NCBI GenBank assembly: GCA_032430995.1
Contig: GCA_032430995.1_3952.1
Strand: one strand, 5' to 3'
From: a phage
DNA length: 64,000 nt
Shown here: in pieces, positions 147 through 34,817 of the stretch
Layout of the letters: each line of letters opens with the position of its first letter
Numbering within the stretch: position 1 is the stretch's first letter
The notes under the pieces: model-generated
Told to the model about the DNA's origin: nothing
The model's input: only the letters and a program-made list of their open reading frames with translations
Database searches by the model: none
Made by a program: the position numbers and the translations under genes

Positions 147-176
147 TTGACAGACTCTACAAAGTTGCTCTAAAGT
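147..176 (+). promoter_or_regulatory. sigma70-like promoter (TTGACA-N18-TAAAGT) upstream of first CDS
   Basis: TTGACA at 147-152, TAAAGT at 171-176; purine-rich RBS and ATG at 216 follow. Confidence 0.45.
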
Positions 177-215: not shown

Positions 216-1631
216 ATGAGCGAATTATTTAAACATGCGCACCTTCATGCAGGTCGAACTGAAAATGGTGCTGTAAACCATACTTCATCAATGTCTGCTC
301 TTGTAGACTTTTACAAAGCTGCTGGTTCAAGCCGTAGCAACGTAGAAATCTTACCAGACCTGTTCTACAAAGCTTTGCGTGAGGATGTTGATGTTGCAGT
401 TCGTATTTTGCTTCATATGCGAGATGTACGAGAAGGTATGGGTGAGCGTAAAGCCTTCAGAACTGTTTTGCTTCAAGCAATTGAAGATAAAGTTTTAGAG
501 CCTACACAGGTTCTTCGCATTATGGATAAGATTGCAGAACTTGGTCGTTTTGATGACTTCAAAATCTTCGTGGGTACTTGTTTCGAGACAGATGCCTTCA
601 AACATTTAGAAGCAGCATTACTAGACCCTGCAACAGCAGGTTTGGCGGCTAAGTGGTTACCACGAGTCAAACCACGTCATAAGCAGTTTGTAAAACGTTT
701 CTGCAAGTTTGCCAACTTGAGTGAGAAAGAGTACCGCACACTGTTGTCTGCACTATCTGATACAGTTGAGCAAAAAATCTCTGCTAATGAGTTTGGTAAG
801 ATTGACTACAGTAAGATTCCTTCACTTGCTGCTGCACGTTACCAAAAACTGTTTAACCGTAAAGATGGAGAGCGTTACAAAGCTTACATCGAGTCCTTAT
901 CAAAAGGTGAGACTAAGATTAGCGCTGGTGCTGTTTACCCATACGATGTGATTAAATCTGTCAAGCATGGTAATGCAGATGTTGCTAATGAGCAGTGGAA
1001 AGCACTACCAAACTGGATGGCAGAAGGTGAAAACATCTTGTGTATGTCTGATGTATCAAGTTCAATGTCTTGGGTGAATTTTGGCTCCATTACTGCTCTG
1101 GATATTGGTGTATCACTTGCCTTGTATGTAGCAGAACGCAATACAGGTTGCTTTAAGAATGAGTTGATGGTTTATTCAACAAACCCTCACTTCATCGAAC
1201 TGAGTGGTGATTTACGAAACCGTCATCGTCAGGTGATGCGACACGTTGAATATGGCTCAACTAACTTACAAGCAGCTTTTGACCGCATTCTTGAGACAGG
1301 CAAAAGAAACAACTTGACTCAGAAAGATATGCCAAGTAAGCTTATCATCTTCTCCGATATGGAGTTTAATCAGGTTGATGGGGCTAACGGTCGTACAAAC
1401 TTTGAAGCAATTCAGAGTAAGTACAAAAAAGCTGGATATGAGATGCCACAACTGGTATTCTGGTACTTAGCAAACCGTAATGGTACTTGCGAAGTATCTG
1501 TTAAGGATAACGGTGTAGCAATGGTATCAGGGTTCTCTCCAGCCACTTTAAAAGCTCTGCTTGGTGGTGAGAAGTTTGACCCAATCAGTGTAATGCTCAA
1601 AGCAGTAATGATTGACCGTTATATCTGGTAA
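216..1631 (+). CDS. von Willebrand factor A (vWA) domain protein, DUF2828/TROVE-like
   Basis: 471 aa ORF with RBS; MIDAS-like DxSxS motif (DVSSSMS) and a second vWA-like block (LIIFSDMEF) in the C-terminal half; family name recalled from memory, not searched. Confidence 0.5.
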   Translation: MSELFKHAHLHAGRTENGAVNHTSSMSALVDFYKAAGSSRSNVEILPDLFYKALREDVDVAVRILLHMRDVREGMGERKAFRTVLLQAIEDKVLEPTQVLRIMDKIAELGRFDDFKIFVGTCFETDAFKHLEAALLDPATAGLAAKWLPRVKPRHKQFVKRFCKFANLSEKEYRTLLSALSDTVEQKISANEFGKIDYSKIPSLAAARYQKLFNRKDGERYKAYIESLSKGETKISAGAVYPYDVIKSVKHGNADVANEQWKALPNWMAEGENILCMSDVSSSMSWVNFGSITALDIGVSLALYVAERNTGCFKNELMVYSTNPHFIELSGDLRNRHRQVMRHVEYGSTNLQAAFDRILETGKRNNLTQKDMPSKLIIFSDMEFNQVDGANGRTNFEAIQSKYKKAGYEMPQLVFWYLANRNGTCEVSVKDNGVAMVSGFSPATLKALLGGEKFDPISVMLKAVMIDRYIW

Positions 1632-1649: not shown

Positions 1650-1678
1650 TTGACAATGTGTTTAATACCCTTTAATAT
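1650..1678 (+). promoter_or_regulatory. sigma70-like promoter (TTGACA-N17-TAATAT) at head of tRNA array
   Basis: consensus -35 and near-consensus -10 with 17 nt spacer; embedded in inverted repeat AAGGGTAT...ATACCCTT. Confidence 0.5.
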
Positions 1679-1739
1679 GTTCTACATAGAAACGAAATGA
1701 GAGCTTTTCTAAGATACTGAAAAATATTTTAAAAAGTTC

Positions 1740-1769
1740 TTGACAACCACTAAAAAATAATGTTAAAGT
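1740..1769 (+). promoter_or_regulatory. sigma70-like promoter (TTGACA-N18-TAAAGT)
   Basis: same architecture as the promoter at 147-176; immediately upstream of first tRNA. Confidence 0.45.
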
Positions 1770-1795: not shown

Positions 1796-1872
1796 CTCTG
1801 TTTAGCTCAGCTTGGTAGAGCGTTCCGTTTGGGGCGGTAAGGCCGGAGGTTCAAGTCCTCCAACAGAGACCA
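1796..1872 (+). tRNA. tRNA-Pro (anticodon UGG)
   Basis: hand-folded cloverleaf: 7 bp acceptor stem, GGTTCAAGTCC T-arm, anticodon loop TTTGGGG, encoded CCA. Confidence 0.65.
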
Positions 1873-1879
1873 AATTAAT

Positions 1880-1957
1880 GTTCCAGTGGACAAAATGGTA
1901 AAGTCACCACTCTTTCAAAGTGGATATTTGAGGGTTCAAATCCCTTCTGGAACGCCA
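1880..1957 (+). tRNA. tRNA-Glu (anticodon UUC)
   Basis: acceptor GTTCCAG/CTGGAAC, anticodon stem CCACT/AGTGG with loop CTTTCAA, T-arm GGGTTCAAATCCC, CCA. Confidence 0.6.
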
Positions 1958-2047
1958 GTTTTGACAGAAGACCAATTACAGCAAACTTAATCTACTCATC
2001 TGAAAGTTAATCGGACAAAGAAGATATTTGGTCTGGTCATTAAGAAT

Positions 2048-2124
2048 TGCGGGTATAGAGAAAGGGCGTCTCACATGTCTCATTAGCATGGTATCGGCAG
2101 GTTCGACTCCTGCACCCGCCTCCA
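2048..2124 (+). tRNA. tRNA-Met/fMet/Ile2 (anticodon CAU)
   Basis: T-arm GCAGG-TTCGACT-CCTGC, anticodon stem CATGT/GCATG loop CTCATTA, CCA; first acceptor pair mismatched. Confidence 0.5.
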
Positions 2125-2207
2125 AATTTACAGAAGACCGTTTACAGCAATATTTATTAAATTTTTAGCGGAAAAATTGAAAGATACGGTCTGGTAATAC
2201 TAAACAT

Positions 2208-2284
2208 GGTTAGGAAGCACATAAGGTATGTGCGGTCGCCTGTTAAGCGAATGGCACAGGGTTCGAATCCCTGACTAACCGCCA
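2208..2284 (+). tRNA. tRNA-Asn (anticodon GUU)
   Basis: anticodon loop CTGTTAA, T-arm CAGGG-TTCGAAT-CCCTG, CCA. Confidence 0.6.
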
Positions 2285-2353
2285 AATTTAGGAGAGAAGC
2301 GATTGCTCACCGATTTGTAAGGTGCAAGTCCTTAGCCTGAATAGAAATCAAAT

Positions 2354-2441
2354 GTGTCGTTATCCCGTAGATGGTAGCGGTGGGGACTGTAAATCCCTTG
2401 TCATTGAGACTCGGTAGGTTCGACTCCTACACGGCACACCA
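2354..2441 (+). tRNA. tRNA-Tyr (anticodon GUA), long variable arm
   Basis: 88 nt; acceptor GTGTCGT/ACGGCAC, anticodon loop CTGTAAA, long variable arm, T-arm GGTTCGACTCC, CCA. Confidence 0.65.
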
Positions 2442-2447
2442 AATAAA

Positions 2448-2525
2448 GGTTATGTAGTTTAATCTGGTTAAAATACTCCCCTGTCACGGGAGATGATGAG
2501 GGTTCAAATCCCTTCGTAACCGCCA
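2448..2525 (+). tRNA. tRNA-Asp (anticodon GUC)
   Basis: anticodon stem CTCCC/GGGAG loop CTGTCAC, T-arm GGGTTCAAATCCC, CCA. Confidence 0.65.
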
Positions 2526-2708
2526 ATTTTGAGAGGGCTATTTAGCCCCTCCCTTAAAGGGTTCTTACGAGTATTCTTTAAAGGAGCAGAAGACCAAATA
2601 CAGCAAGTTATTTAAAATTTCAAGCCAATTTAATTTTGAAAAATTTAAAACTTGGTCTGGCTCAACAAATTTACAGAAGACCGTTTACAGCAAAACTTAA
2701 ACAATCTA

Positions 2709-2782
2709 TTTCTCCGGTAAAGAAAAGGCGAAGGTTCGATTCCTTCACTCGGCAGATGTCGAGTTGGTGTAATGGTAGCACT
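2709..2782 (+). other. tRNA-like element with permuted half order (3' half upstream of 5' half); possible permuted or pseudo tRNA
   Basis: 2709-2754 folds as anticodon-arm-like hairpin (TTTCT-CCGGTAA-AGAAA), T-arm GAAGG-TTCGATT-CCTTC and 3' acceptor strand ACTCGGC; 3 nt later 2758-2781 gives matching 5' acceptor strand GTCGAGT plus a D-arm; no normal upstream 5' half found. Confidence 0.25.
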
Positions 2783-2807
2783 TAAGATGATAAACAACGG
2801 TCTGGTA

Positions 2808-2950
2808 ATTATCTTTGTAGATAAGTTATTAAGCTTACCTGTGAGTATGCGACCACAAAGGGTGAAAGGGTAAATTCTAGATTTAAACCCAAAAAGGCAC
2901 ATCGCTACAGACCTTAAGCAAGTCTGGGTAGCTTATCTACAAAGATAATT
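2808..2950. repeat. perfect 19 bp inverted repeat (AATTATCTTTGTAGATAAG / CTTATCTACAAAGATAATT) flanking a 105 bp spacer
   Basis: arms at 2808-2826 and 2932-2950 are exact reverse complements; lies between the tRNA-like element and tRNA-Lys. Confidence 0.7.
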
Positions 2951-2954
2951 TAAT

Positions 2955-3030
2955 GGAAGTGTAGCAGAATGGTGATGCGGCAGACTTTTAATCTGACAGG
3001 CGATGGGTTCGAATCCCTCCACTTCTACCA
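2955..3030 (+). tRNA. tRNA-Lys (anticodon UUU, tentative)
   Basis: acceptor GGAAGTG/CACTTCT, T-loop GGGTTCGAATCCC, anticodon loop CTTTTAA, CCA; anticodon and T stems imperfect. Confidence 0.5.
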
Positions 3031-3108
3031 AATTCACCCTTAACTGAGAAACACCTGCGCGGCTGGAAACACCCACTCAACAGTTTCTCTAACTAGGGTA
3101 CTTATTCT

Positions 3109-3185
3109 GGTTCAGTCGCAGATAAGGTAATGCAAGGGTCTCATAAGCCCTATGAATGTGGGTTCGATTCCCATCTGAACCTCCA
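3109..3185 (+). tRNA. tRNA-Met (anticodon CAU)
   Basis: anticodon stem AGGGT/GCCCT loop CTCATAA, T-arm GGGTTCGATTCCC, CCA. Confidence 0.65.
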
Positions 3186-3186
3186 A

Positions 3187-3262
3187 GCTGGTATAGTTAA
3201 GAAGGTTATAACACTCCCCTGATAAGGGAACATCGGTGGTTCGATTCCACCTACCAGTACCA
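3187..3262 (+). tRNA. tRNA-Ile (anticodon GAU)
   Basis: anticodon loop CTGATAA, T-arm GGTGG-TTCGATT-CCACC, CCA. Confidence 0.65.
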
Positions 3263-3277
3263 ATTTCAATAAAGTTG

Positions 3278-3306
3278 TTGACATTGAGATGTGACTACTT
3301 TATAGT
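3278..3306 (+). promoter_or_regulatory. sigma70-like promoter (TTGACA-N17-TATAGT) internal to tRNA array
   Basis: consensus -35, 17 nt spacer, TATAGT -10. Confidence 0.5.
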
Positions 3307-3508
3307 AACCTTAGTTTTCGTTGCGTAGCGTCTATTTTGCAAATTTAAAATAAATGCAAACGACAATGTTTTTCTGGCAGTAGCTTGATAGGCTAAACAC
3401 CAGTGAGGTCTTCCAATCCCTCATCAAAGAATTTGGCGTACTCGCCCACGGTATGATTAATAAGGTGGGCATCTTTAAGGGCTTTCTAAGAGAGTCTTTA
3501 AAGATAAT

Positions 3509-3585
3509 GCACCCTTAGTTCAATTGGATAGAGCAACGGTCTTCTAAATCGTTAGTTACAGGTTCGAATCCTGTAGGGTGTACCA
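3509..3585 (+). tRNA. tRNA-Arg (anticodon UCU)
   Basis: acceptor GCACCCT/AGGGTGT, anticodon stem ACGGT/ATCGT loop CTTCTAA, T-arm CAGG-TTCGAAT-CCTG, CCA. Confidence 0.65.
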
Positions 3586-3727
3586 AATAGTTAGCAGATT
3601 ACTTAGACGGCCTTAGCGGGTCTTCCTGTAGGGAGGTGGTCTGTATCTCATGTTTTCCAGAACATGTAAATAATCTGAGAAGGAGCTTGACAGTGTTGAG
3701 ATAACAGGGTAAGCTTCGAATTATAAT

Positions 3728-3810
3728 ATGGGACGATGTTAAGACTCTAAGGCATGAGCAACGGCCTCCAAAACCGTTTCAAAGGGGTTCAACTCCTCCG
3801 TCCCATGCCA
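3728..3810 (+). tRNA. tRNA, anticodon uncertain (possibly Trp CCA; enlarged anticodon loop)
   Basis: perfect acceptor ATGGGAC/GTCCCAT, T-loop TTCAACT, CCA; anticodon stem AACGG/CCGTT closes a 9 nt loop CCTCCAAAA. Confidence 0.4.
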
Positions 3811-3823
3811 AAGTCTTATTAGG

Positions 3824-3911
3824 GGTAGGTAGCGGCTAATGGTAGCCAAACTGTCTTGAAAACAGTTGCCACTGTAGAGATACGGTGAGGGTTCGACTCC
3901 TTTACTTACCG
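3824..3911 (+). tRNA. tRNA-Ser (anticodon UGA), long variable arm
   Basis: 88 nt; acceptor GGTAGGT/ACTTACC, anticodon stem ACTGT/ACAGT loop CTTGAAA, long variable arm, T-arm GAGGG-TTCGACT-CCTTT. Confidence 0.65.
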
Positions 3912-4061
3912 CCTAATAAGATTTACTCCGTCCATGCTTGTTCGCATTGTCGGTTTATCCCTCGTGTATTGTCGTACACTGTCAAAGCACCTAGTAGGTG
4001 TCACGGAGAAGAGATAATATCAAGCTCTCCAAAGGTTCTAGTCACCGGATTAAACAAGACT

Positions 4062-4086
4062 ATGCAAAGACCTATTTAGGTCTTTT
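4062..4086 (+). terminator. intrinsic-terminator-like hairpin inside tRNA array
   Basis: AAGACC-TATTTA-GGTCTT stem-loop followed by a T run. Confidence 0.4.
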
Positions 4087-4167
4087 TAGAGGGCTTCTAA
4101 GGTTATTAGTCGCTTGTTGTGGAACCTTGTTGCTTAGGTTCTTAGAAGTTCTCTAAAAAGATTTAAT

Positions 4168-4245
4168 GGGAGATTGACGGTAATTGGTAAACCTACCATC
4201 CTTAGAAGTTGGTGTTTGAGGGTTCGAATCCCTTGTCTCCTACCA
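4168..4245 (+). tRNA. tRNA, anticodon apparently UAG (Leu-type) but short variable arm
   Basis: acceptor GGGAGAT/GTCTCCT, T-arm GAGGG-TTCGAAT-CCCTT, CCA; anticodon loop CTTAGAA; class I length. Confidence 0.4.
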
Positions 4246-4252
4246 AATTAAT

Positions 4253-4328
4253 GCAGGTGTAGCAAAATGGTTATGCGGCTGACTCTTAATCAGTAAGACG
4301 ATGGGTTCAATTCCCTCCACCTGTACCA
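4253..4328 (+). tRNA. tRNA-Lys (anticodon CUU)
   Basis: anticodon stem GCTGA/TCAGT loop CTCTTAA, T-loop GGGTTCAATTCCC, CCA. Confidence 0.55.
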
Positions 4329-4334
4329 AACATT

Positions 4335-4410
4335 GGGGATGTAGTTTACATGGTTAAAACATAAGTTTTGCAAACTTAAGTACAGGGTTCAATTCCCTGC
4401 TTCTCCACCA
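4335..4410 (+). tRNA. tRNA-Ala (anticodon UGC)
   Basis: anticodon stem TAAGT/ACTTA loop TTTGCAA, T-arm CAGGG-TTCAATT-CCCTG, CCA. Confidence 0.6.
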
Positions 4411-4416
4411 ATTAGT

Positions 4417-4491
4417 GCATCCATAGTTTAAACGGGAAAATTACAGTCTTCCAAACTGAGGTTGAGGGTTCGATTCCCTCTGGATGCTCCA
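4417..4491 (+). tRNA. tRNA-Gly (anticodon UCC)
   Basis: acceptor GCATCCA/TGGATGC, anticodon loop CTTCCAA, T-arm GAGGG-TTCGATT-CCCTC, CCA. Confidence 0.6.
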
Positions 4492-4497
4492 AACAAT

Positions 4498-4574
4498 GCT
4501 GCTTTCGTATAATTGGCTATTACACATCCCTTGTAAGGATGGAAATGCAGGTTCGAGTCCTGTGAGCAGCACCA
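4498..4574 (+). tRNA. tRNA-Thr (anticodon UGU)
   Basis: anticodon stem CATCC/GGATG loop CTTGTAA, T-arm GCAGG-TTCGAGT-CCTGT, CCA. Confidence 0.65.
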
Positions 4575-4670
4575 ATTCAGAGGTCAAGTGAAAGACCGCT
4601 TTGAGTCAACTGAAGACCGTAACAAATACCACGGAGTTGAGTTAGCGGCACAACTTCAGACCTCTTTCAT

Positions 4671-4745
4671 ACTCGCTTAGTTTATATGGTAAAACATCAC
4701 CCTTACAAGATGAAGAAAAAGGTTCAAGTCCTTTAGTGAGTACCA
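4671..4745 (+). tRNA. tRNA-Val (anticodon UAC)
   Basis: acceptor ACTCGCT/AGTGAGT, D-stem GTTT/AAAC, anticodon loop CTTACAA, T-arm AAAGG-TTCAAGT-CCTTT, CCA. Confidence 0.6.
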
Positions 4746-4746
4746 T

Positions 4747-4824
4747 GTTCCAGTATCCCAATTGGCAGAGGATGCAAGCTCAAACCTTGTATTAGTGACG
4801 GTTCGAATCCGTCTTGGAACACCA
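4747..4824 (+). tRNA. tRNA with Leu-type anticodon CAA, class I length
   Basis: acceptor GTTCCAG/TTGGAAC, anticodon stem GCAAG/CTTGT loop CTCAAAC, T-arm GACGG-TTCGAAT-CCGTC, CCA; no long variable arm. Confidence 0.5.
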
Positions 4825-4829
4825 ATTTT

Positions 4830-4905
4830 GCAGGATTAGTTCAAATGGAAAGAGCAACAGTCTACGAAGCTGTTAATAGGGGTTCGAATCCCTTATCCTG
4901 CGCCA
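4830..4905 (+). tRNA. tRNA-Arg (anticodon ACG)
   Basis: perfect acceptor GCAGGAT/ATCCTGC, anticodon loop CTACGAA, T-arm GGGGTTCGAATCCC, CCA. Confidence 0.7.
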
Positions 4906-4922
4906 GATAAAAAGGTGATACT

Positions 4923-5165
4923 ATGCAAACATTAACAGTAGTTGAACATGAAAACTGTGAGAGTATTGAGTTTGTCAGGGTCATTGGTGTTGAACACCAC
5001 ATTTTCTTAAAAGTGGGATACTTATGCGACCCCGCTAGAGTAGAAAGATTTATACGTGATTGTTTTGGTGGTAGACATCTGAAGAGTGTTATTTTTGAGA
5101 CAGTTTTACCAGAAGGTTTAGAAACGAATAATAACATTTACCTCCTTACGAGGATTAGACAATGA
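4923..5165 (+). CDS. hypothetical small protein inside tRNA array
   Basis: 80 aa ORF with AAGGTGA RBS 6 nt upstream of ATG; sits in a tRNA-free gap. Confidence 0.4.
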   Translation: MQTLTVVEHENCESIEFVRVIGVEHHIFLKVGYLCDPARVERFIRDCFGGRHLKSVIFETVLPEGLETNNNIYLLTRIRQ

Positions 5166-5719
5166 GATACTTAAAGTATGCTTCATGGATTTTCTTAGCT
5201 TTGTTAGAGCCATTTGCAGCAATCTTAGCAGTTATCTTAGCACCTTTTGTAGTTCCATTCTACAGTGAGAAGAAAGGACACTTACCTTTCGGGTTCAGAT
5301 GGATGGAGACATATGACAACCCAATTGATGGTGATGAAGGTCACGTTAAAAGATGGGCTAATATTAGATGGGTTGGTAAACTAGGTGTCTACATGCAAAG
5401 AGTCGGATGGCTCTGGAGAAACAAAGCTTATAACTTCTCTTACCATGTATTAGGAAGAGATGTAAGAGATGTTACTAAGTGGAAAGGTAATATCAACGTA
5501 AGTTCTAACCCTGAAGATAATCAGACTGGTTATCTCCTAATGTGGAACAGTAATGCTTGGGGATTATTCGCTTTTATCCCATCAATTAAAGTCTTCGGTA
5601 AACAGTTTTACTGGAGAATTTATGTTGGATGGAAACTTAAAAGTGTTGTCCCAGAAGAAAGAGCATTCTCAAGGGAAAGAGTTATGTTGGCATTCTTTAT
5701 TCATCCACTGAGAAAGTAA
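5162..5719 (+). CDS. hypothetical membrane protein
   Basis: 185 aa ORF overlapping upstream stop (ATGA); hydrophobic N-terminal segment; Trp/Tyr-rich. Confidence 0.5.
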   Translation: MRYLKYASWIFLALLEPFAAILAVILAPFVVPFYSEKKGHLPFGFRWMETYDNPIDGDEGHVKRWANIRWVGKLGVYMQRVGWLWRNKAYNFSYHVLGRDVRDVTKWKGNINVSSNPEDNQTGYLLMWNSNAWGLFAFIPSIKVFGKQFYWRIYVGWKLKSVVPEERAFSRERVMLAFFIHPLRK

Positions 5720-5727
5720 AGATTTAA

Positions 5728-5803
5728 AGGGGATTAGTTTACAAGGTTAAAACCTCGGTCTTTGAAATCGAAGAAGTTGGTTCAATTCCAACATCCCCCG
5801 CCA
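5728..5803 (+). tRNA. tRNA-Gln (anticodon UUG)
   Basis: D-stem GTTT/AAAC, anticodon stem TCGGT/ATCGA loop CTTTGAA, T-arm GTTGG-TTCAATT-CCAAC, CCA. Confidence 0.6.
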
Positions 5804-5805
5804 AT

Positions 5806-5884
5806 GCTCCATTACTCCAATTGGCAGAGAGGCCAGACTTAAAATCTGTGTTATGTATCGGTTCGAATCCGATATGGAGTACCA
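5806..5884 (+). tRNA. tRNA with Leu-type anticodon UAA, class I length
   Basis: acceptor GCTCCAT/ATGGAGT, anticodon loop CTTAAAA, T-arm ATCGG-TTCGAAT-CCGAT, CCA. Confidence 0.5.
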
Positions 5885-5889
5885 AATTT

Positions 5890-5965
5890 AGCGGTATAGC
5901 ATAACTGGCAATGCAGCAGTCTCTGAAGCTGTCCTATTAAGGTTCAAATCCTTATGCCGCTGCCA
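5890..5965 (+). tRNA. tRNA-Gln (anticodon CUG)
   Basis: D-stem GCAT/ATGC, anticodon stem GCAGT/GCTGT loop CTCTGAA, T-arm TAAGG-TTCAAAT-CCTTA, CCA. Confidence 0.55.
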
Positions 5966-5996
5966 CTTCTAAGGATTCTTACGAGAGTCCTTAAAT

Positions 5997-6072
5997 GTGG
6001 CCTTATCATAAATGGTAATGACCCATGCTGTGAACATGGTCTATACGGGTTCAAATCCCGTAGGTCACCCCA
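5997..6072 (+). tRNA. tRNA-His (anticodon GUG)
   Basis: anticodon stem CCATG/CATGG loop CTGTGAA, T-arm CGGG-TTCAAAT-CCCG, CCA. Confidence 0.65.
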
Positions 6073-6077
6073 ATTTA

Positions 6078-6154
6078 TAGTCCAAGTAGCTTATATGGTT
6101 AAAGCGCGTGTCTGAAAAACATGAGAAGAGGGTTCAAATCCCACTGGACTACCA
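6078..6154 (+). tRNA. tRNA-Phe (anticodon GAA)
   Basis: acceptor TAGTCCA/TGGACTA, anticodon stem CGTGT/ACATG loop CTGAAAA, T-loop GGGTTCAAATCCC. Confidence 0.6.
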
Positions 6155-6170
6155 ATTTCAAAGGTGCTTA

Positions 6171-6905
6171 ATGAAAGAGATGACAGAACAAGGTAAGGAG
6201 ATTTTCAATCTCTTAAAAACCGGTAAAGGGTTTTCTAACCCCCTTATTACTGGTGCAGCAGTTCTCGGTGGAACCGTAGCTGCCTCTACATCACTTGTAA
6301 GCTCTATTAGCTCTGTATCAGACCCTACAGTAAAGGATAAGCTTGTTGCTGCTGGACTTACAACAGTTCTGCTTAACAGCTTTACCACGAGTCTGACAAG
6401 CACTACATCAACCACCAAAACACTAACAGATTACGGTCAAAAGTCCATTGATGAGTTTTCATCACGTATGCAGGTAGCAAAAGGTTACTCTAATGTTATG
6501 GGTGCAGCAGGTGAACAAGTTGGCTGTACACCATTTAGTGGTATTATGGGTGTTGCTACAGAGTATGGTCAAAAAGCTATTGATACGATTAACAGTGCAC
6601 TAGACGGTGTTAATGGTGTGTTAAGTGACTTACAAGACGCTATTGACAAAGGTCTTGATACTATTTCTGATTTAGCTAACCAAGCTGTTAGTAAGATTAA
6701 TGAAGGTATCTCAAAGATTACAGCTTATGCAGATGAAGTTGTGCAGATGATTGAAGAAGAAGCTGCTCTTATTGCAGAGTACCTTAAAACGAATATCAAT
6801 GGGTTCTTAGCAGGTATCTTACCAGACTGGTTTGATGATGCTTGTAAAACTGGTGTAATTGACACTATTGCAACACCAGAAATGAAGAGCGCATTACAGA
6901 AATAA
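6171..6905 (+). CDS. hypothetical protein (Ser/Thr-rich N-terminal half, predicted helical C-terminal half)
   Basis: ORF track frame 6108-6905 trimmed to ATG 6171 because 6078-6154 is tRNA-Phe; RBS AAAGG upstream. Confidence 0.5.
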   Translation: MKEMTEQGKEIFNLLKTGKGFSNPLITGAAVLGGTVAASTSLVSSISSVSDPTVKDKLVAAGLTTVLLNSFTTSLTSTTSTTKTLTDYGQKSIDEFSSRMQVAKGYSNVMGAAGEQVGCTPFSGIMGVATEYGQKAIDTINSALDGVNGVLSDLQDAIDKGLDTISDLANQAVSKINEGISKITAYADEVVQMIEEEAALIAEYLKTNINGFLAGILPDWFDDACKTGVIDTIATPEMKSALQK

Positions 6906-6906
6906 T

Positions 6907-6999
6907 GGAAGATTAACCCTAAAAGGTAAGGGAGCAGTTTGCTAAACTGCCAGTAGCTGAGAAATCGGTGTACCAGTTCAAGTCTGGTATCTTCCTCCA
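6907..6999 (+). tRNA. tRNA-Ser (anticodon GCU), long variable arm
   Basis: 93 nt; perfect acceptor GGAAGAT/ATCTTCC, anticodon stem GCAGT/ACTGC loop TTGCTAA, long variable arm, T-arm ACCAG-TTCAAGT-CTGGT, CCA. Confidence 0.7.
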
Positions 7000-7003
7000 A
7001 TTT

Positions 7004-28018: not shown

Positions 28019-30559
28019 ATGGCAGATTACAAATTGAGTCAATTAAACTCAATCGACACAATTCGTTCAGAAGACCTATTGCACATCAGAGTTAAGAAAA
28101 GACCTGAAATGTTGGGTGATGAAGACCGTAGAATGACCTATCAAGACTTCTTAGCTTCCTTCAAACTAGAAAGGTTTGTTCAGATTGCTGGAAGCACTAT
28201 GACTGGGGATTTAGGTATTGTCAAGTTACTTTACGGTGGAAAGTCTGTATTTGACCCTACAGGCTCTTCTGAGATTACTATTGGGGATATTTTAAAGACT
28301 TTTAAAATTAACGCAAACGGTCTTAAACTAACTATTGCAGATGCTTCAAGGTCAGCAACTGTTTATCATACTCTGAATAAGCCAAGTCCTAATGAGCTTG
28401 GTATGAGGACTAATGAAGAGAATGATGCAAGATACGCAAGACTTGCTATCACAAACACATTCTCTGGAACTCAAAATATTCAAGGTGATGCTAACTTACT
28501 TCGCCTTAGAAACCAAAATGCAAATAATGCACAATATATTGAAGGTGTAAACCTAGATGGTTCGGCTAGATGGTGGGTTGGTATTGGTAGTAATGGCTCT
28601 GACGAAGTAAAGCTGTACAATAACAAATACAACTCAGCCTTGACTGTTGCAAGTAATGTCTCTGTTAATAAGTCTTTAGCAATCACTGGTCAAGTTCAAC
28701 CTTCAGATTTCTCTAACTTAGATGCTAGATACTTCACTCAGACAGTTGCTAATCAGAGATTTGCACAGTTAGCTGCTAATAATAATTTCACGGGCACTAA
28801 CACGTTTAGTAGAAATCTAACTATCATTAGTGACAGTGCTGCTTTAAGGTTGAAAAATGCAACAGCTAGCTCACTATTCATTCAGGGTGTTGACTCTCAG
28901 AACACTAACAGGTGGTATGTAGGGAACGGGGATAACACAGCCTCTGTGCTGCTACACAACTATGTACACGGTTCAAATATCAGACTTGATAATGGCTATA
29001 TCTCAGTCAACCAGAACTTCAGAATCACTGGTCAAGTTCAACCTTCGGATTGGACTAATATTGATTCTAGATATATTCCGGCAGCCACATTAAGTACAAT
29101 TGCAAGAACCAATGCTGCTAACACATTCTCTGCACAACAGGTTATCAACTCTGATGGTGAAGCTCTTGCGTTAAAAGCAAAAACTGCATCGTCATTATTT
29201 ATTAGAGGGAAGGCTGTTGATGGAACCAGCAAGTGGTATATCGGTAATGGTGATGCCAGTGATATCTTAAACCTGTATAACTACAAGACAGGTAAAGGGC
29301 TTAACATTGGTTCAGTATTTGAAATGAATGCAACTTTAGCAATCACTGGTCAAGTTCAACCTTCAGATTTCTCTAACTTAGATGCTAGATATTTTACTCA
29401 AAGTGCTAGTGATAGCAGATACCTGAGAATCAGAAGCACCAGTTTTAATTTAGGAAACGATGAAAAGTGGGCTAAAATCGCTACTGTTGTAATGCCACAA
29501 TCAACATCTACAGCAGTTATTGAGGTTTTTGGAGGTGCTGGTTTTAATGCGAATAACCCATACCAATCAGGCAAGTGTGAAATTGTTTTACGAACATCAA
29601 ATAATAATCCAAAGGATTTAAATGCTGTAGCTTGGAGAACAGCAGATAATGCCCTCATCACGGATATTGGTTACGTTAACACTTCTGGTGACACTTATGA
29701 TATTTACTGTAAGGTTGGAGGCTACCAAAATTCTACGGTATCTAGGGTTCAATCTTCTAGTAATGCAAGTGTACAGTTGTTTGAAGTCCCACAGACATTT
29801 GATGATGCTCCACAAGGTATTGTGAAGGGTACAATTGCAAAATACTACACAAGTTTGCAAAAACCAACCCCTTCAGATATTGGTGCATACACTAAAGCAG
29901 AAACTGACCAGAAGATTGCAGAAGCAATTAGTGACTCTACAGACCTGAATAAAATCTATCCAGTAGGTATTGTAACGTGGTTTAACAGTAATGTTAACCC
30001 TAATACAGCACTTCCTGGGTTAACTTGGACGTACCTGAATAATGGTGTTGGTAGAACTATTAGAATTGCAGCAGCAAACGGTTCAGATGTTGCTACAACT
30101 GGTGGTTCAGACTCTGTAACGTTATCTGTTGGTAACTTACCTTCACATACACACAGTTTCTCTGCTACCACTTCATCATTTGATTATGGTACTAAGACTT
30201 CTAGCACAACTGGTAACCATAACCACAACAGAGGTACTATGGAGATTACTGGTTCATTTGGTTACTTCAGGAGTGACACTAGCAGCTTCTACACAGCAAG
30301 TGGTGCATTCCACCTCGGTAGTCAGGCAGGTTCTAAAGGGTATACTGGTAATAACTTTACTAATGGTATCCCTGTCAACTTCAACGCATCAAGAAACTGG
30401 TCTGGTGTAACGAATACAACAGGTAACCACAGCCACACTGTTGGTATTGGTGCTCACAGCCACACAGTTAGTGGTAACACTGGTGGTACTGGTTCTGGTT
30501 CAGCATTCAGTGTTACTAACCAGTTCTATAAGTTAATGGCTTGGGTAAGAACTGCTTAA
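28019..30559 (+). CDS. long tail fiber protein with internal shaft repeats and His-x-His tip domain
   Basis: 846 aa; three copies of about 110 aa repeat (LAITGQVQPSDFSNLDARYFTQ); C-terminal HTHSFS/HNHN/HSHTV motifs as in upstream fiber. Confidence 0.75.
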   Translation: MADYKLSQLNSIDTIRSEDLLHIRVKKRPEMLGDEDRRMTYQDFLASFKLERFVQIAGSTMTGDLGIVKLLYGGKSVFDPTGSSEITIGDILKTFKINANGLKLTIADASRSATVYHTLNKPSPNELGMRTNEENDARYARLAITNTFSGTQNIQGDANLLRLRNQNANNAQYIEGVNLDGSARWWVGIGSNGSDEVKLYNNKYNSALTVASNVSVNKSLAITGQVQPSDFSNLDARYFTQTVANQRFAQLAANNNFTGTNTFSRNLTIISDSAALRLKNATASSLFIQGVDSQNTNRWYVGNGDNTASVLLHNYVHGSNIRLDNGYISVNQNFRITGQVQPSDWTNIDSRYIPAATLSTIARTNAANTFSAQQVINSDGEALALKAKTASSLFIRGKAVDGTSKWYIGNGDASDILNLYNYKTGKGLNIGSVFEMNATLAITGQVQPSDFSNLDARYFTQSASDSRYLRIRSTSFNLGNDEKWAKIATVVMPQSTSTAVIEVFGGAGFNANNPYQSGKCEIVLRTSNNNPKDLNAVAWRTADNALITDIGYVNTSGDTYDIYCKVGGYQNSTVSRVQSSSNASVQLFEVPQTFDDAPQGIVKGTIAKYYTSLQKPTPSDIGAYTKAETDQKIAEAISDSTDLNKIYPVGIVTWFNSNVNPNTALPGLTWTYLNNGVGRTIRIAAANGSDVATTGGSDSVTLSVGNLPSHTHSFSATTSSFDYGTKTSSTTGNHNHNRGTMEITGSFGYFRSDTSSFYTASGAFHLGSQAGSKGYTGNNFTNGIPVNFNASRNWSGVTNTTGNHSHTVGIGAHSHTVSGNTGGTGSGSAFSVTNQFYKLMAWVRTA
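28681..28740 (+). repeat. intragenic near-identical repeat, copy 1 (tail fiber shaft)
   Basis: 60-mer at 28681-28740 nearly identical to 29341-29400 (3 mismatches); diverged third copy near 29021-29080. Confidence 0.8.
29341..29400 (+). repeat. intragenic near-identical repeat, copy 2 (tail fiber shaft)
   Basis: see copy 1; 660 bp period corresponds to two protein repeat units. Confidence 0.8.
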
Positions 30560-30638
30560 TCCCTTGTTGACTGATTGTTAAGATGGTGTTAATATTCTTT
30601 ATAGGTATTCTCACCATCTTGGCTGATGAGGTGATTAA

Positions 30639-30833
30639 ATGCCTACAATCCTAGCAATTCTTCTAAAAAATCTAGGTAGCTTCTTCTGGAAACTCATTTT
30701 ATCCCTTCTAAGTGAATACATGATTGAGAAAGTGTTCTTTAAGCTTGCAAGATACCTTGCGAGTAAAACAGATACACCTATTGATGATGAGTTCGTAGAT
30801 AACTTAGAAAAAGCTTTTAAGGGGGAGAAATAA
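30639..30833 (+). CDS. hypothetical small membrane-associated protein (holin-like candidate)
   Basis: 64 aa with hydrophobic N-terminal region, after fiber genes. Confidence 0.3.
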   Translation: MPTILAILLKNLGSFFWKLILSLLSEYMIEKVFFKLARYLASKTDTPIDDEFVDNLEKAFKGEK

Positions 30834-31205
30834 ATGAAGTGGCTAGAGGAAGCTTTTAAAAATAATATTGGTGCAATTGTAGTTGGTATTTTTAGTGTTA
30901 TTGGGATGTATACCACTATGCAAGTCTCAAGTGGTAAGCAGGAAGTGTCTGTCACAACAAAGTTACAGCAGCTAGATAATTATTCCAAAAGTAACTATTC
31001 AGCTATTCGTGATTTACAGTCTGACATGAGATTGATTCAGCTAGGGATGGAGAACCAGAAAGTTCAGTTAGAGAATGTTAAGGGTGAAAACGCAAAACTT
31101 ACCAAAACCCTTGATAAATTCTCTGACAGTGTGAACAATCTGGCTCAATCAGTATCAGCCTTGCAAGCTATTACTGAAAAGAACACAAAGAATACTGAAA
31201 AATAA
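30834..31205 (+). CDS. membrane protein with periplasmic coiled coil (spanin/holin-like candidate)
   Basis: 123 aa; N-terminal TM helix (IGAIVVGIFSVIGMY) followed by coiled-coil-like region. Confidence 0.35.
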   Translation: MKWLEEAFKNNIGAIVVGIFSVIGMYTTMQVSSGKQEVSVTTKLQQLDNYSKSNYSAIRDLQSDMRLIQLGMENQKVQLENVKGENAKLTKTLDKFSDSVNNLAQSVSALQAITEKNTKNTEK

Positions 31206-31211
31206 AATTTA

Positions 31212-31240
31212 AGGCTCCCGTAAAAAGGAGCCTTTTTTGT
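31212..31240. terminator. bidirectional intrinsic terminator between convergent late and early blocks
   Basis: GGCTCC-CGTAAAAA-GGAGCC hairpin with T runs on both sides. Confidence 0.7.
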
Positions 31241-31242
31241 TT

Positions 31243-32142: not shown

Positions 32143-32143
32143 A

Positions 32144-33462: not shown

Positions 33463-33475
33463 AATTCATTACCTA

Positions 33476-33835: not shown

Positions 33836-33836
33836 A

Positions 33837-34341: not shown

Positions 34342-34342
34342 A

Positions 34343-34726: not shown

Positions 34727-34817
34727 AATGACCTCAAAGTTATATTAAATTTTGTATTACATTGAGTATAAAAATAAGCTATAACACCTGACTTGTCAAC
34801 AGATTTTATAGCTTATT

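What the first reader, a model, noticed from the sequence alone, without database searches (positions are those of the whole stretch)
216..1631. vWA-domain protein encoded immediately upstream of the tRNA array
The 471 aa protein has a C-terminal vWA-like domain with a DVSSSMS MIDAS-like motif and a conserved-looking N-terminal domain of unknown function. Ro60/TROVE-type vWA proteins bind tRNA-like non-coding RNAs, so its position next to an array full of tRNA-like and structured RNA elements may be functionally meaningful (RNA chaperoning or quality control) rather than coincidental.
Basis: inference. Interest (0 to 1): 0.4.

Follow-up and report, generated by a model that had tools for sequence, protein, structure and literature searches.

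The report
Phage Ro60-like protein and partner RNAs
The gene encodes a ring-shaped Ro60-like protein already reported to defeat a bacterial defence, and beside it, hidden between the tRNA genes, are four small RNAs of a type conserved next to this gene in very different phages and closely resembling the unexplained 'Class I' RNAs of social amoebae.

Summary
The ORF at 216..1631 is real: 471 aa, with a complete and invariant MIDAS motif. It belongs to Pfam DUF2828 + DUF7788. Its AlphaFold model matches only Ro60 proteins along its full length, so the Ro60-like reading holds at fold level. The Pfam TROVE model does not match.

The window is a Felixounavirus. The 97.7%-identical orthologue, Bas63 gp130, is already published as Ro60-like, sited next to the tRNAs, and a counter to the 'ppl' defence.

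tRNA linkage is real but partial: 38 of 75 diverse homologous loci carry tRNA/tmRNA genes, against 4 of 118 control loci. All 355 genes lie on the same strand as the gene.

A conserved RNA module is linked to the gene more often than tRNAs are. It has a 6-7 bp terminal stem (5' G ... C-U-G 3') followed by single-stranded N-U-ACAGCAA.
- Within 1.2 kb of the gene there are 94 hits on the gene strand and 3 on the other.
- 55 of 75 loci have one, as do Vibrio, Listeria, Staphylococcus, Enterococcus, Campylobacter and Mycobacterium phages.
- The window has four, all in tRNA spacers. One carries a permuted tRNA-like domain like YrlA Y RNAs.
- The module matches the Rfam consensus of Dictyostelium Class I RNA, below threshold.

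Protein-RNA binding is inferred, not shown.

The parts
147..176 (+). sigma-70-like promoter (TTGACA-18-TAAAGT) in front of the gene
   Evidence: Consensus scan, 10 of 12 matches. It is overlapped by the inverted repeat GACAGACT/AGTCTGTC. Its function was not tested.
216..1631 (+). Gene for the 471-aa DUF2828/DUF7788 Ro60-like protein, the orthologue of Bas63 gp130
   Evidence: ORF. Pfam. PHROG 850 'RNA-binding protein', E 1.8e-182. AF2 model pLDDT 86.7, pTM 0.86. Foldseek top 12 hits are all Ro60. 460/471 residues identical to bas63_0130.
216..1007 (+). N-terminal all-helical domain (residues 1-264; Pfam DUF2828), structurally equivalent to the HEAT-repeat TROVE ring of Ro60
   Evidence: DSSP on the model shows 16 helices. 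Full-length structural alignments to Ro60. Invariant or near-invariant basic and acidic residues R69, D70, R72, G74, G76, R78, R111, D113, D114, K146, W147. No sequence-level match to TROVE.
1035..1580 (+). C-terminal vWA domain (residues 274-455; Pfam DUF7788)
   Evidence: Pfam E 1.8e-43. hhalign to the Ro60 vWA aligns DVSSSM with DVSGSM and VSGFSP with VSGFDS. vWA-only Foldseek hits from rank 13.
1050..1064 (+). MIDAS DxSxS (D279-V-S281-S-S283). The remaining MIDAS residues are T349 (1260-1262) and D381 (1356-1358).
   Evidence: All five residues are invariant in alignments A1 and A4.
1650..1769 (+). Two sigma-70-like promoters (1650-1678 and 1740-1769) between the gene and the first tRNA
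   Evidence: Consensus scan, 10 of 12 matches each. They suggest the array can be transcribed on its own. Not tested.
1796..7079 (+). Array of 26 tRNA genes
   Evidence: ARAGORN and Rfam tRNA hits. Bas63 and wV8 have the same gene order.
1969..2035 (+). RNA module 1, in the spacer between tRNA-Glu and tRNA-Met: AGACCAA / UU-ACAGCAA / ... / UUGGUCU-G
   Evidence: Repeat family D8. Motif found 4 times in the window against 0.03 expected. Descriptor hit. Rfam RF01414 hit at 1970-2035, 17.8 bits.
2135..2193 (+). RNA module 2, in the spacer between tRNA-Met and tRNA-Asn: AGACCGU / UU-ACAGCAA / ... / ACGGUCU-G
   Evidence: Its stem differs from module 1 by compensatory changes. Rfam RF01414 full-length alignment, 20.1 bits, E 0.056 in an 81-nt search. 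Present in Bas63.
2591..2659 (+). RNA module 3, after tRNA-Asp
   Evidence: Rfam RF01414 hit at 2592-2659, 16.6 bits.
2678..2804 (+). RNA module 4. The same closing stem and UU-ACAGCAA enclose a permuted tRNA-like domain: T-arm 2730-2746, acceptor-like stem-loop 2747-2764, D-arm-like 2765-2782.
   Evidence: Sequence. MFE fold -31.7 kcal/mol with these three hairpins. T-arm regex. Weak Rfam tRNA hit at 2697-2747. The T / acceptor-like / D order is that of YrlA. Present in Bas63.

Best explanation
**What it is (shown)**
- The protein is a divergent member of the Ro60 structural class. A helical ring domain (DUF2828) is closed by a vWA domain with an intact MIDAS site.
- Its gene travels, in phages of Proteobacteria, Firmicutes and Actinobacteria, with a small structured RNA module.
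- The module has a 6-7 bp stem that joins the two ends (conserved 5' G, 3' C-U-G). Directly after the 5' strand lies a single-stranded N-U-ACAGCAA. The interior is variable.

**What I infer**
- The protein binds this module as Ro60 binds the stem of Y RNAs, with the helix on the ring surface and the single strand beside or in the cavity.
- In this Felixounavirus the four modules lie in spacers of the tRNA array. They would be set free as 60-130-nt RNAs when RNase P and the 3' processing enzymes cut out the flanking tRNAs.
- The fourth module adds a permuted tRNA-like domain, as in bacterial YrlA Y RNAs. That domain could recruit tRNA-handling or RNA-repair/decay enzymes.
- In other phages a minimal copy of the module overlaps the Shine-Dalgarno sequence or start codon of the gene itself. 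This suggests the protein represses its own translation, and that free module RNAs titrate it.

**Biological output**
- The output is counter-defence in an RNA-centred conflict. The 97.7%-identical Bas63 gp130 is reported to neutralise the ppl defence.
- In other phages the gene sits beside RtcB, Rnl1-type RNA ligases and phosphoesterases.
For: **Fold**
- The AF2 model (pLDDT 86.7) has Ro60 from Xenopus, human, Deinococcus and Thermus phage as its 12 best PDB matches, each full length.
- The profile-profile match to Ro60 vWA aligns the MIDAS motif and the C-terminal VSGF motif.

**RNA module: enrichment**
- TACAGCAA occurs 104 times on the gene strand and 29 times on the other strand in 1.31 Mb.
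- Its density within 1 kb of the gene is 10.7x that farther away.

**RNA module: pairing**
- 61 of 83 nearby motifs have a perfect 6-bp stem in register. The rate is 4.8% at random positions and 2.5% for opposite-strand motifs.
- A stricter descriptor gives 94 hits on the gene strand against 3 on the other, in 55 of 75 loci.
- Module density is 47 in 0.29 Mb near the gene and 7 in 2.03 Mb of control sequence.
- All 7 stem pairs covary: 68 doubly changed cells against 19.8 +/- 3.6 in shuffles.
- The 3' G is present in 62 of 64 instances when it is not imposed.

**Reverse test**
- Of 120 sequence-only matches in IMG/VR, 3 have the stem. Two of those 3 lie 40 and 281 nt from a DUF2828 gene. None of the other 117 does.

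**Cultured phages**
- Modules flank the gene in KVP40, Rumpelstiltskin, Listeria LMLPA3, Enterococcus A2, Staphylococcus S-CoN_Ph12 and Campylobacter F358.
- There are none around the true TROVE Ro60 of Bxz1.

**Other lines**
- Operator-like copies abut the SD or ATG of the gene.
- Ten modules contain a T-arm. Rfam YrlA touches the tRNA-like domain of the Rumpelstiltskin module at 21.4 bits.
- RNA-repair neighbours: Rnl1 plus Metallophos; HD phosphohydrolase, RtcB and RNA ligase.
- Published phenotype of the orthologue.
Against: **No direct evidence**
- No binding experiment exists. The protein-RNA link rests on co-occurrence.

**Published result that points the other way**
- gp130 alone, from a plasmid or inserted into T7, rescues T7 on ppl hosts. 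That activity therefore needs neither the modules nor phage tRNAs.

**Gaps in the association**
- 20 of 75 loci, and Acinetobacter phage ME3, show no module within 1.2-5 kb.
- The Felix-type gene has no operator-like copy upstream.

**Limits of the homology evidence**
- The Pfam TROVE model gives no hit at E<=1.
- The N-terminal domain has no sequence-level link to TROVE.
- Rfam scores for Class I RNA and YrlA are all below the gathering thresholds, and L073 gave no Class I hit.

**Limits of the statistics**
- The loci are phylogenetically related, so the p-values overstate independence.
- The module instances used for covariation were picked with a pairing rule.
Confidence: 0.6

Rival explanations
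1. The protein is a direct protein-level inhibitor of a host defence nuclease such as ppl. It would use its vWA/MIDAS face. The neighbouring RNA modules would only regulate its synthesis or titrate it, or would be irrelevant to its activity.
For: - gp130 alone counters ppl in Bas63 complementation, and also in T7, which has neither modules nor tRNAs.
- The MIDAS motif, a protein-ligand site in many vWA proteins, is invariant.
- The operator-like copies fit a purely regulatory role.
Against: - A Ro60-like ring with many invariant arginines, kept across 8,699 clusters, is hard to explain by one defence system of E. coli.
- Tandem arrays of 2-4 modules with their own promoter and terminator, some with tRNA-like domains, are more than an operator needs.
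- Neighbouring RNA ligases point to RNA substrates.
- The two explanations are not exclusive.
Confidence: 0.2
2. The stem-ACAGCAA modules are signals read by something else, such as a host RNase, another phage protein, or a processing or attenuation mechanism for tRNA-array transcripts. They would sit near the gene only because both belong to the same 'RNA toolkit' region of phage genomes.
For: - In the window the modules lie in tRNA spacers, not directly at the gene.
- 16 further modules lie more than 1.3 kb from the gene in other loci, several of them in tRNA arrays.
Against: - Modules flank the gene in loci without any tRNA: the L010 family, Rumpelstiltskin and the Staphylococcus phage.
- Most tRNA spacers in the window lack them.
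- The Bxz1 stretch examined, which holds tRNA genes and a true TROVE Ro60, has none.
- In the reverse test, stem-bearing matches were next to a DUF2828 gene in 2 of 3 cases, against 0 of 117.
- Copies overlapping the gene's own SD or ATG tie them to this gene.
Confidence: 0.12
3. The gene's position next to the tRNA array is an accident of Felixounavirus genome order and has no functional meaning.
For: - Protein-coding neighbours differ between lineages: ClpP, DnaJ, Mom-like, RNase HII and others.
- Half of the loci have no tRNA within 10 kb.
Against: - 38 of 75 loci have tRNA/tmRNA against 4 of 118 control loci (odds ratio 29). 19 of the 75 have one within 1 kb, and all 355 are on the same strand.
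- Adjacency recurs in unrelated phages, including T4-like, Listeria, Enterococcus and Campylobacter phages.
Confidence: 0.03

Closest known systems
Ro60/Rsr with Y RNAs (bacterial YrlA/YrlB; Salmonella rsr-yrlBA-rtcBA operon; Deinococcus Rsr-Yrn1-PNPase)
   Same: - Same two-domain architecture, a helical ring plus a MIDAS vWA domain.
- Partner RNAs are encoded within a few kb on the same strand (for Ro60; here).
- The RNA has a terminal stem with a conserved single-stranded or bulged motif on the 5' side, plus in some copies a permuted tRNA-like T / acceptor-like / D domain.
- Genomic association with RtcB.
   Different: - No match to the Pfam TROVE or vWA_Ro60 models, whereas Bxz1 gp220 matches both.
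- BLASTP finds nothing between the two proteins.
- The conserved RNA motif is N-U-ACAGCAA, not GNCGAAN0-1G.
- The Rfam YrlA model reaches only 21 bits on one module.
- Modules come in tandem sets and as spacers of tRNA arrays.
Thermus phage phiLo phiRo60 with Yrl1/Yrl2 (PMC12135203; PDB 9KOP, 9L5Y)
   Same: A phage-encoded Ro60-fold protein with adjacent small RNAs. It is among the top structural matches (ranks 6 and 9). It is proposed to co-opt host RNA enzymes.
   Different: phiRo60 is a TROVE-family member with CGAA-motif Y-like RNAs upstream of the gene. The protein here belongs to DUF2828/DUF7788 and has a different RNA signature.
Bas63 (Escherichia phage JohannRWettstein) gp130, PhageMaP preprint PMC11482910
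   Same: It is the orthologue: 460 of 471 residues identical, with the same tRNA order downstream. The authors noted Ro60-like structure and the position upstream of the tRNAs, and showed that it counters the ppl defence.
   Different: They guessed that some annotated tRNA genes might be Y RNAs. Here the candidates are unannotated spacer RNAs, partly covered by doubtful minus-strand ORFs (bas63_0137/0138; wV8 gp048). The module is shown to be conserved across phage families.
Dictyostelid Class I RNAs (Rfam RF01414; Kjellin et al. 2021, PMC7919456)
   Same: - About 60 nt long, with a 6-bp stem joining the ends and compensatory changes in that stem.
- Invariant 5' G paired to the C of a 3' CUG(U).
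- An unstructured conserved motif directly after the 5' strand; the Rfam consensus reads CUUACAGCAA.
- The motif positions most often varied in the phage modules (5 and 7) are not among the five (3, 6, 9, 10, 11) reported as nearly invariant in dictyostelids.
- The Rfam model aligns full length on modules of four phage lineages at 15-23 bits.
   Different: - All scores are below the gathering threshold of 41.5, and one phage locus gave no hit.
- Class I RNAs are eukaryotic, and the authors believe they are Pol III transcripts. They are reported as unique to Dictyostelia.
- Their known direct binder is the RRM protein Rnp1A.
- Some phage modules have interiors up to 250 nt long.
Eukaryotic DUF2828 proteins (for example wheat TraesCS5D02G325700)
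   Same: Same Pfam family, which the phage protein matches at E 2.1e-30.
   Different: No function is known for them. I could reach no eukaryotic sequence with these tools, so domain-by-domain comparison and any link to small RNAs remain untested.

Membership tests
Pfam DUF2828 + DUF7788 (PHROG 850) | Scores above the curated thresholds of PF11443 and PF25043 | tested here: met
   106.4 bits against a cut-off of 29, and 148.8 bits against 27.1. PHROG 850 E 1.8e-182 over the full length.
Ro60/TROVE family | Match to Pfam TROVE (PF05731) and vWA_Ro60 (PF25045) | tested here: not met
   No hit at E<=1. The positive control Bxz1 gp220 hits both at about 1e-50. BLASTP between the two proteins gives E>=1.1.
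Ro60/TROVE family | Fold: HEAT-like helical ring closed by a vWA domain | tested here: met
   Foldseek ranks 1-12 are all Ro60, E 2.7e-8 to 1.3e-5, TM 0.47-0.64 (0.37 for 9nen), about 520-550 aligned columns. This rests on a predicted model with pLDDT 86.7.
Ro60/TROVE family | Sequence-profile homology over the whole protein | tested here: inconclusive
   hhalign gives 79.6% and then 88.5% (E 2.7e-6), but only for residues 235-442. In the PDB profile search Ro60 chains rank at the top with E 0.08-0.43.
Ro60/TROVE family | Intact MIDAS motif in the vWA domain | tested here: met
   D279, S281, S283, T349 and D381 are invariant and align with the Ro60 DVSGSM / T-D / D-N-E positions.
Ro60/TROVE family | Binds Y RNA and misfolded RNA | not testable with these tools
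   Only co-occurrence with candidate RNAs is available.
YrlA-type Y RNA (Rfam RF02553), tested on module 4 | GNCGAAN0-1G near the 5' end, then T-arm, acceptor-like stem-loop and D-arm, within 4 kb of the protein gene on the same strand | tested here: inconclusive
   The T / acceptor-like / D order and same-strand proximity are present. The 5' motif is UU-ACAGCAA instead. A GGCGAAG lies at 2727-2733 but abuts the T-arm. There is no RF02553 hit in the window at E<=10, and only a 21.4-bit hit on the Rumpelstiltskin module.
Dictyostelium Class I RNA (Rfam RF01414), tested on modules 1-3 | Score at or above the gathering threshold of 41.5 bits | tested here: not met
   20.1, 17.8 and 16.6 bits in the window. 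15-23 bits in three other phages. No hit in L073.
Dictyostelium Class I RNA (Rfam RF01414), tested on modules 1-3 | Descriptive hallmarks: 6-bp terminal stem with covariation, 5' G, 3' CUG, unstructured UUACAGCAA after the 5' strand, about 60 nt | tested here: met
   compared with the published description and the Rfam consensus.
tRNA | Cloverleaf recognised by ARAGORN or by Rfam at threshold | tested here: not met
   None of the four modules is called as a tRNA. Module 4 gives only a partial 22-bit tRNA hit.

The most novel reading that the evidence does not exclude
The phage stem-UUACAGCAA modules and the Class I RNAs of dictyostelid social amoebae would be one RNA family. That family would be the cognate ligand of DUF2828-type Ro60-like proteins in both phages and eukaryotes.

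If so:
- Class I RNAs are not unique to Dictyostelia. They would be the 'Y RNAs' of a second, very large Ro60-like lineage.
- A dictyostelid DUF2828 protein should bind them. One possible candidate is DDB_G0281243, the protein of unknown function pulled down with DdR-21.
- Plant DUF2828 proteins should have similar partners.
Probability: 0.4. Interest if true: 0.88.

Novelty: new variant of a known kind. Interest (0 to 1): 0.7.

Why it matters
**What is already known.** The protein-level idea is in databases and in one preprint: Ro60-like, next to tRNAs, anti-defence.

**What appears new.** A concrete, conserved RNA partner candidate for this very large phage protein family. It is absent from Rfam 15 as a phage family, and none of my searches of the held literature turned it up.

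**Why that is useful**
- It turns the question 'which RNAs does gp130 use?' into a direct experiment on four defined spacers.
- It explains unannotated spacers, and probably spurious ORFs, inside phage tRNA arrays.
- It suggests an autoregulatory operator in several phages.
- It adds a second Ro60/Y-RNA-like system with a different recognition motif.
- It offers a testable protein partner for Dictyostelium Class I RNAs, whose mechanism is still unknown and which were reported as unique to dictyostelids.

Tried and rejected
**Sequence searches against PDB.** The single sequence and two profiles gave no significant Ro60 hit. Only fold comparison and hhalign showed the relationship.

**Rfam.** Rfam at gathering thresholds found nothing in seven tRNA-less loci.

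**Shared protein neighbours.** Clustering ORFs within 6 kb across 76 loci gave only lineage-specific neighbours (ClpP, DnaJ, Mom-like, RNase HII), not a universal partner. Rnl1 and Metallophos neighbours recur in only 2-4 lineages.

**First stem statistic.** A loose test (any 6 bp, G-U allowed, four offsets) did not discriminate: 68% of random positions passed. I replaced it with stricter descriptors.

**Covariance model.** I decided against building one. MAFFT splits the 3' strand, and the variable 14-250-nt interiors would be penalised. I used descriptor scans with controls instead.

**Large-domain structure.** RNAalifold on the about 240-nt domain of the L010 family resolved only the closing stem and one hairpin.

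**Literature I could not reach.** Burroughs & Aravind 2016, the Sim et al. 2020 review and Avesson et al. 2011 are not in the held library. The PhageMaP supplements are not held.

**Eukaryotic DUF2828 sequences.** The last homologue search returned only phage-like proteins. I therefore could not check whether Dictyostelium DDB_G0281243 is a DUF2828 protein.

**Ideas considered and dropped**
- Hammerhead-like reading of the 3' CUGAU: Rfam gives no such hit.
- Anticodon-loop mimicry of N-U-ACA: the variants give no consistent anticodon.
Full report
**1. Observation**

The window is a Felixounavirus (wV8 / Felix O1 type). Its first 8 kb are 95-97% identical to many E. coli and Salmonella phages.

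The ORF at 216..1631 (+) encodes 471 aa. ARAGORN finds 26 tRNA genes on the same strand from 1796 to 7079.

The motif DVSSS (D279-x-S281-x-S283), together with T349 and D381, forms a complete MIDAS site. All five residues are invariant in two 33-sequence alignments that reach 30% identity.

**2. What the protein is**

Database assignments:
- Pfam gives DUF2828 (E 2.1e-30) and DUF7788 (residues 274-455, E 1.8e-43). It gives no TROVE hit at E<=1.
- PHROG 850, labelled 'RNA-binding protein', matches end to end.
- RefSeq uses that same name for wV8 gp047.
- NCBIfam has no model for it.

Structure:
- Sequence and profile searches of PDB find nothing significant.
- An AlphaFold2 model is confident (pLDDT 86.7, pTM 0.86). 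It has a helical N-terminal domain and an alpha/beta C-terminal domain.
- Foldseek against PDB returns Ro60 as ranks 1-12: Xenopus, human, Deinococcus Rsr and Thermus phage phiLo. Alignments cover about 520-550 columns with E 2.7e-8 to 1.3e-5.
- Isolated vWA domains follow only from rank 13.

Control with a true phage Ro60:
- Bxz1 gp220 matches Pfam TROVE and vWA_Ro60 at about 1e-50.
- It shows no BLASTP similarity to the query.
- Profile-profile comparison links the two families at 79.6% and then 88.5% probability (E 2.7e-6). The link covers only the last ring helix plus the vWA domain, with MIDAS and the C-terminal VSGF motif in register.

So the protein works like, and is folded like, Ro60. 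It is not a member of the TROVE sequence family.

The family is very large. It has 8,699 clusters at 50% identity and occurs in 710 phage GenBank records. These span Escherichia, Salmonella, Vibrio, Campylobacter, Listeria, Staphylococcus, Enterococcus, Bacillus and Mycobacterium phages. Some records already call it 'Ro-like RNA binding protein'.

**3. What is already published**

The PhageMaP preprint (PMC11482910) studied Bas63, a Felixounavirus.
- Deleting g130 gives tiny plaques on hosts carrying the ppl defence (ATPase + PHP). Complementation restores them.
- gp130 alone, from a plasmid or inserted into T7, rescues T7 on ppl.
- The authors note Ro60-like structure and the position directly upstream of the tRNA genes. 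They speculate that some annotated tRNA genes are Y RNAs.

I located Bas63 (MZ501086). bas63_0130 is 471 aa, 460/471 identical to the window protein, and is followed by the same tRNA order.

**4. Is the tRNA neighbourhood meaningful?**

I fetched 80 IMG/VR loci encoding homologues. In the 75 that are not Felix-like (38-47% identity):
- 38 carry tRNA or tmRNA genes within the flanks.
- 19 have one within 1 kb.
- All 355 such genes are on the strand of the gene.

A control set of 118 arbitrary IMG/VR loci has tRNAs in only 4 (odds ratio 29).

Adjacency recurs in unrelated cultured phages: KVP40, Listeria LMLPA3, Enterococcus A2 and Campylobacter F358.

The link is real but not universal, and the loci are not phylogenetically independent.

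Protein neighbours are lineage-specific. RNA-repair genes recur:
- A T4 Rnl1-type ligase plus a metallophosphoesterase in L082 and L027.
- An HD phosphohydrolase, RtcB and another RNA ligase in the Listeria phage.
- Bas63 encodes a polynucleotide kinase elsewhere in its genome.

**5. The RNA module**

*Discovery in the window.* Reading the spacers of the array showed a repeat, CAGAAGACC(NN)UACAGCAA. It occurs four times against 0.03 expected. Each copy is followed 40-110 nt later by the complement of AGACCNN and then GG. Copies differ by compensatory changes: AGACCGU/ACGGUCU against AGACCAA/UUGGUCU.

*The same design elsewhere.* It appeared in the ORF-free gap just downstream of the gene in tRNA-less loci, as GGUUCC-UU-ACAGCAA...GGAACC-AG.

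*Quantification across loci.*
- TACAGCAA occurs 104 times on the gene strand and 29 on the other in 1.31 Mb. Its density within 1 kb of the gene is 10.7x that farther away.
- Of 83 ACAGCAA within 1.5 kb of the gene, 61 have a perfect 6-bp Watson-Crick stem whose 5' strand ends 1-3 nt before the motif. The rate is 4.8% at random positions and 2.5% for opposite-strand motifs.
- A stricter descriptor (7 bp, at most one G-U, 2-nt spacer, G after the stem, at most one motif mismatch) gives 94 hits on the gene strand and 3 on the other. 55 of 75 loci have at least one.
- With the exact motif there are 47 modules in 0.29 Mb near genes, 0 on the opposite strand in 1.29 Mb, and 7 in 2.03 Mb of control sequence.

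*Consensus from unique instances.* The form is A-[G R N U N N]-N-U-ACAGCAA ... [N' N' A N' Y C]-U-G.
- The 5' G is present in 57 of 64 instances.
- The 3' G is present in 62 of 64 when it is not imposed.

*Covariation.* On a MAFFT alignment of 31 small modules from 21 sources:
- All 7 pairs show double changes.
- 68 cells are doubly changed, against 19.8 +/- 3.6 in shuffles (0 of 500 reach the observed value).
- 92.9% of cells are paired, against 27-45% when partners are slid.
- Caveat: the instances were picked with a pairing rule.

*Reverse test.* Of 120 IMG/VR matches to AAAGGN6TACAGCAAA, only 3 have the stem. Two of those 3 lie 40 and 281 nt from a DUF2828 gene on the same strand. None of the other 117 has such a gene.

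*Cultured phages.*

| Phage | Modules | Position |
|---|---|---|
| Mycobacterium Rumpelstiltskin | 3, tandem | between two terminators, just downstream of gp54 |
| Listeria LMLPA3 | 3 | upstream, with their own promoter and terminator |
| Staphylococcus S-CoN_Ph12 | 3 | downstream |
| Enterococcus A2 | 2 | upstream |
| Campylobacter F358 | 2 | upstream |
| Vibrio KVP40 | 2 | one overlaps the SD and ATG of the gene; one follows tRNA-Ser |
| Acinetobacter ME3 | 0 | - |
| Mycobacterium Bxz1 (true TROVE Ro60; 50 kb examined) | 0 | - |

*In the window.* The descriptor finds exactly four exact-motif modules: 1969-2035, 2135-2193, 2591-2659 and 2678-2804. Mononucleotide shuffles of the window gave about 2.5 hits per strand, one-mismatch motifs included; the five other hits in the real window all carry one motif mismatch.

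**6. Sub-types of the module**

- *Minimal hairpins.* The loop is about 14-22 nt and the 3' strand abuts the Shine-Dalgarno sequence of the gene itself. Examples are L008, L011, L012, L018, L028, L035, L063 and L068. In KVP40 the stem contains the ATG. This looks like a translational operator. That is an inference.
- *Modules of about 60 nt.* They have A-rich, largely unstructured loops.
- *Modules of 90-250 nt.* Ten of these contain a canonical T-arm.

In the window, and in L031, L046, L081 and Rumpelstiltskin, the interior order is T-arm, acceptor-like stem-loop, then a D-arm with GG. This is the permuted tRNA-like layout described for bacterial YrlA Y RNAs. Those RNAs lie within 4 kb of Ro60 on the same strand.

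Rfam's YrlA model touches the Rumpelstiltskin domain at 21.4 bits, below threshold.

**7. Unexpected resemblance to Dictyostelium Class I RNA**

A permissive Rfam scan put RF01414, 'Dicty_Class_I_RNA', full length on three window modules at 20.1, 17.8 and 16.6 bits. It also hit modules of the Listeria, Staphylococcus and L010-type phages at 15-23 bits. All scores are below the gathering threshold of 41.5, and L073 gave none.

The Rfam consensus is a 6-bp terminal stem, then CUUACAGCAAU, an A/U-rich loop, the 3' strand, then UG.

Kjellin et al. 2021 describe Class I RNAs as follows:
- 42-65 nt long.
- A 6-bp end-joining stem with compensatory changes.
- An invariant 5' G paired to the C of a 3' CUGU.
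- An unstructured 11-nt motif in which positions 3, 6, 9, 10 and 11 (T, C, C, A, A) are nearly invariant.
- Reported as unique to Dictyostelia.

The phage modules vary mostly at motif positions 5 and 7. Neither is among the five positions that the dictyostelid study reports as nearly invariant.

Other points bearing on the link:
- DUF2828 is also a eukaryotic family; wheat has an annotated member, for example.
- The DdR-21 pull-down recovered Rnp1A, GuaB, NdkC and DDB_G0281243, a protein of unknown function.
- I could not obtain any eukaryotic DUF2828 sequence.

The link is therefore a prediction, not a result.

**8. Mechanism and its limits**

*Best-supported reading.* The protein is a Ro60-like ring protein whose cognate RNAs are these modules.
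- In this phage they would be produced by tRNA processing of the array transcript. Promoter-like sites lie at 1650 and 1740.
- One module carries a tRNA mimic.
- The resulting RNP, or the free protein, acts in RNA-centred counter-defence.

*What is shown.* The fold, the family, MIDAS conservation, the tRNA and RNA-module associations, covariation, and the published ppl phenotype of the orthologue.

*What is inferred.* Protein-RNA binding, release of the spacer RNAs, autoregulation, and any repair or quality-control role.

*The main counter-evidence.* gp130 alone suffices against ppl in T7. At least that activity needs no phage RNA.

**9. Verdict**

At the protein level it is already known. The conserved RNA partner candidate, and its likeness to Class I RNAs, make it a new variant of the Ro60/Y-RNA kind and give direct experiments to run.

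Noticed in passing
window 2645-2902 (- strand): An 85-aa minus-strand ORF lies over RNA modules 3 and 4. wV8 annotates it as hypothetical protein gp048, and Bas63 annotates two short CDS (bas63_0137/0138) at the same place. These are probably not genes.
   Followed up: partly
window 3730-3810 (+): A tRNA-like sequence (GGGACGA...TCGTCCC acceptor pairing, T-arm GGGGTTCAACTCCTC) that ARAGORN does not call. Rfam gives only a 23-bit tRNA-Sec-type hit. The loop CUCCAAA would give anticodon CCA (Trp).
   Followed up: no
window 5162-5719 (+): A 185-aa ORF sits inside the tRNA array between tRNA-Arg and tRNA-Gln. It is conserved in wV8 (gp53) and Bas63 (bas63_0153), and its function is unknown.
   Followed up: no
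window 3263-3508, 3586-3729, 3914-4167, 4575-4670: Further long spacers in the array carry no tRNA and no ACAGCAA module. One has a strong promoter-like site at 3278-3306 (11 of 12 matches). Weak tmRNA-like and hairpin Rfam hits fall at 3204-3508 and 4072-4172.
   Followed up: no
window 30000-42000: GC skew turns negative between about 30 and 42 kb, which suggests a block of minus-strand genes.
   Followed up: no
L207 3428-3979 (Listeria phage LMLPA3): A ROOL RNA (Rfam RF03087, 89 bits, E 1.1e-16, just under the gathering score of 99.1) lies inside the tRNA array, about 1 kb upstream of the three modules and the DUF2828 gene.
   Followed up: no
L207 7073-11455; L082 6279-10555; L027 1954-3752: RNA-repair genes lie beside DUF2828 genes. 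The Listeria phage has an HD phosphohydrolase, RtcB, 'tRNA amidotransferase' and an RNA ligase. Two metagenomic lineages have a T4 Rnl1-type ligase plus a metallophosphoesterase.
   Followed up: partly
L033, L038, L044, L048, L066, L078; L032; L208: One lineage of DUF2828 loci carries a phage tmRNA gene 4-7 kb downstream, together with ClpP (18 loci) and DnaJ (13 loci). L032 and the Enterococcus phage A2 (L208) have a tmRNA upstream of the gene, in A2 within its tRNA array.
   Followed up: no
L010 11470-11726 and relatives (L013, L014, L016, L019-L021, L023-L025, L067): The second module of this family encloses a conserved domain of about 240 nt. It contains GUCGAAG and GCCGAAG about 32 nt apart, which is the GNCGAAG motif of YrlA, and it ends in an intrinsic terminator. 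Only the closing stem and one hairpin could be supported by covariation.
   Followed up: partly
L215 555-1250 and 3279-4064 (Bas63 60554-61249, 63278-64063): Felixounavirus Bas63 encodes a polynucleotide kinase and a putative phosphatase about 20 kb from gp130. Neither has a homologue inside this 64-kb window.
   Followed up: partly
L206 6400-6790 (Mycobacterium phage Rumpelstiltskin): The 370-nt 'empty' gap after gp54 is a compact unit. It has a terminator hairpin, three tandem modules (the middle one with a tRNA-like domain) and a second terminator. The record annotates none of it.
   Followed up: yes
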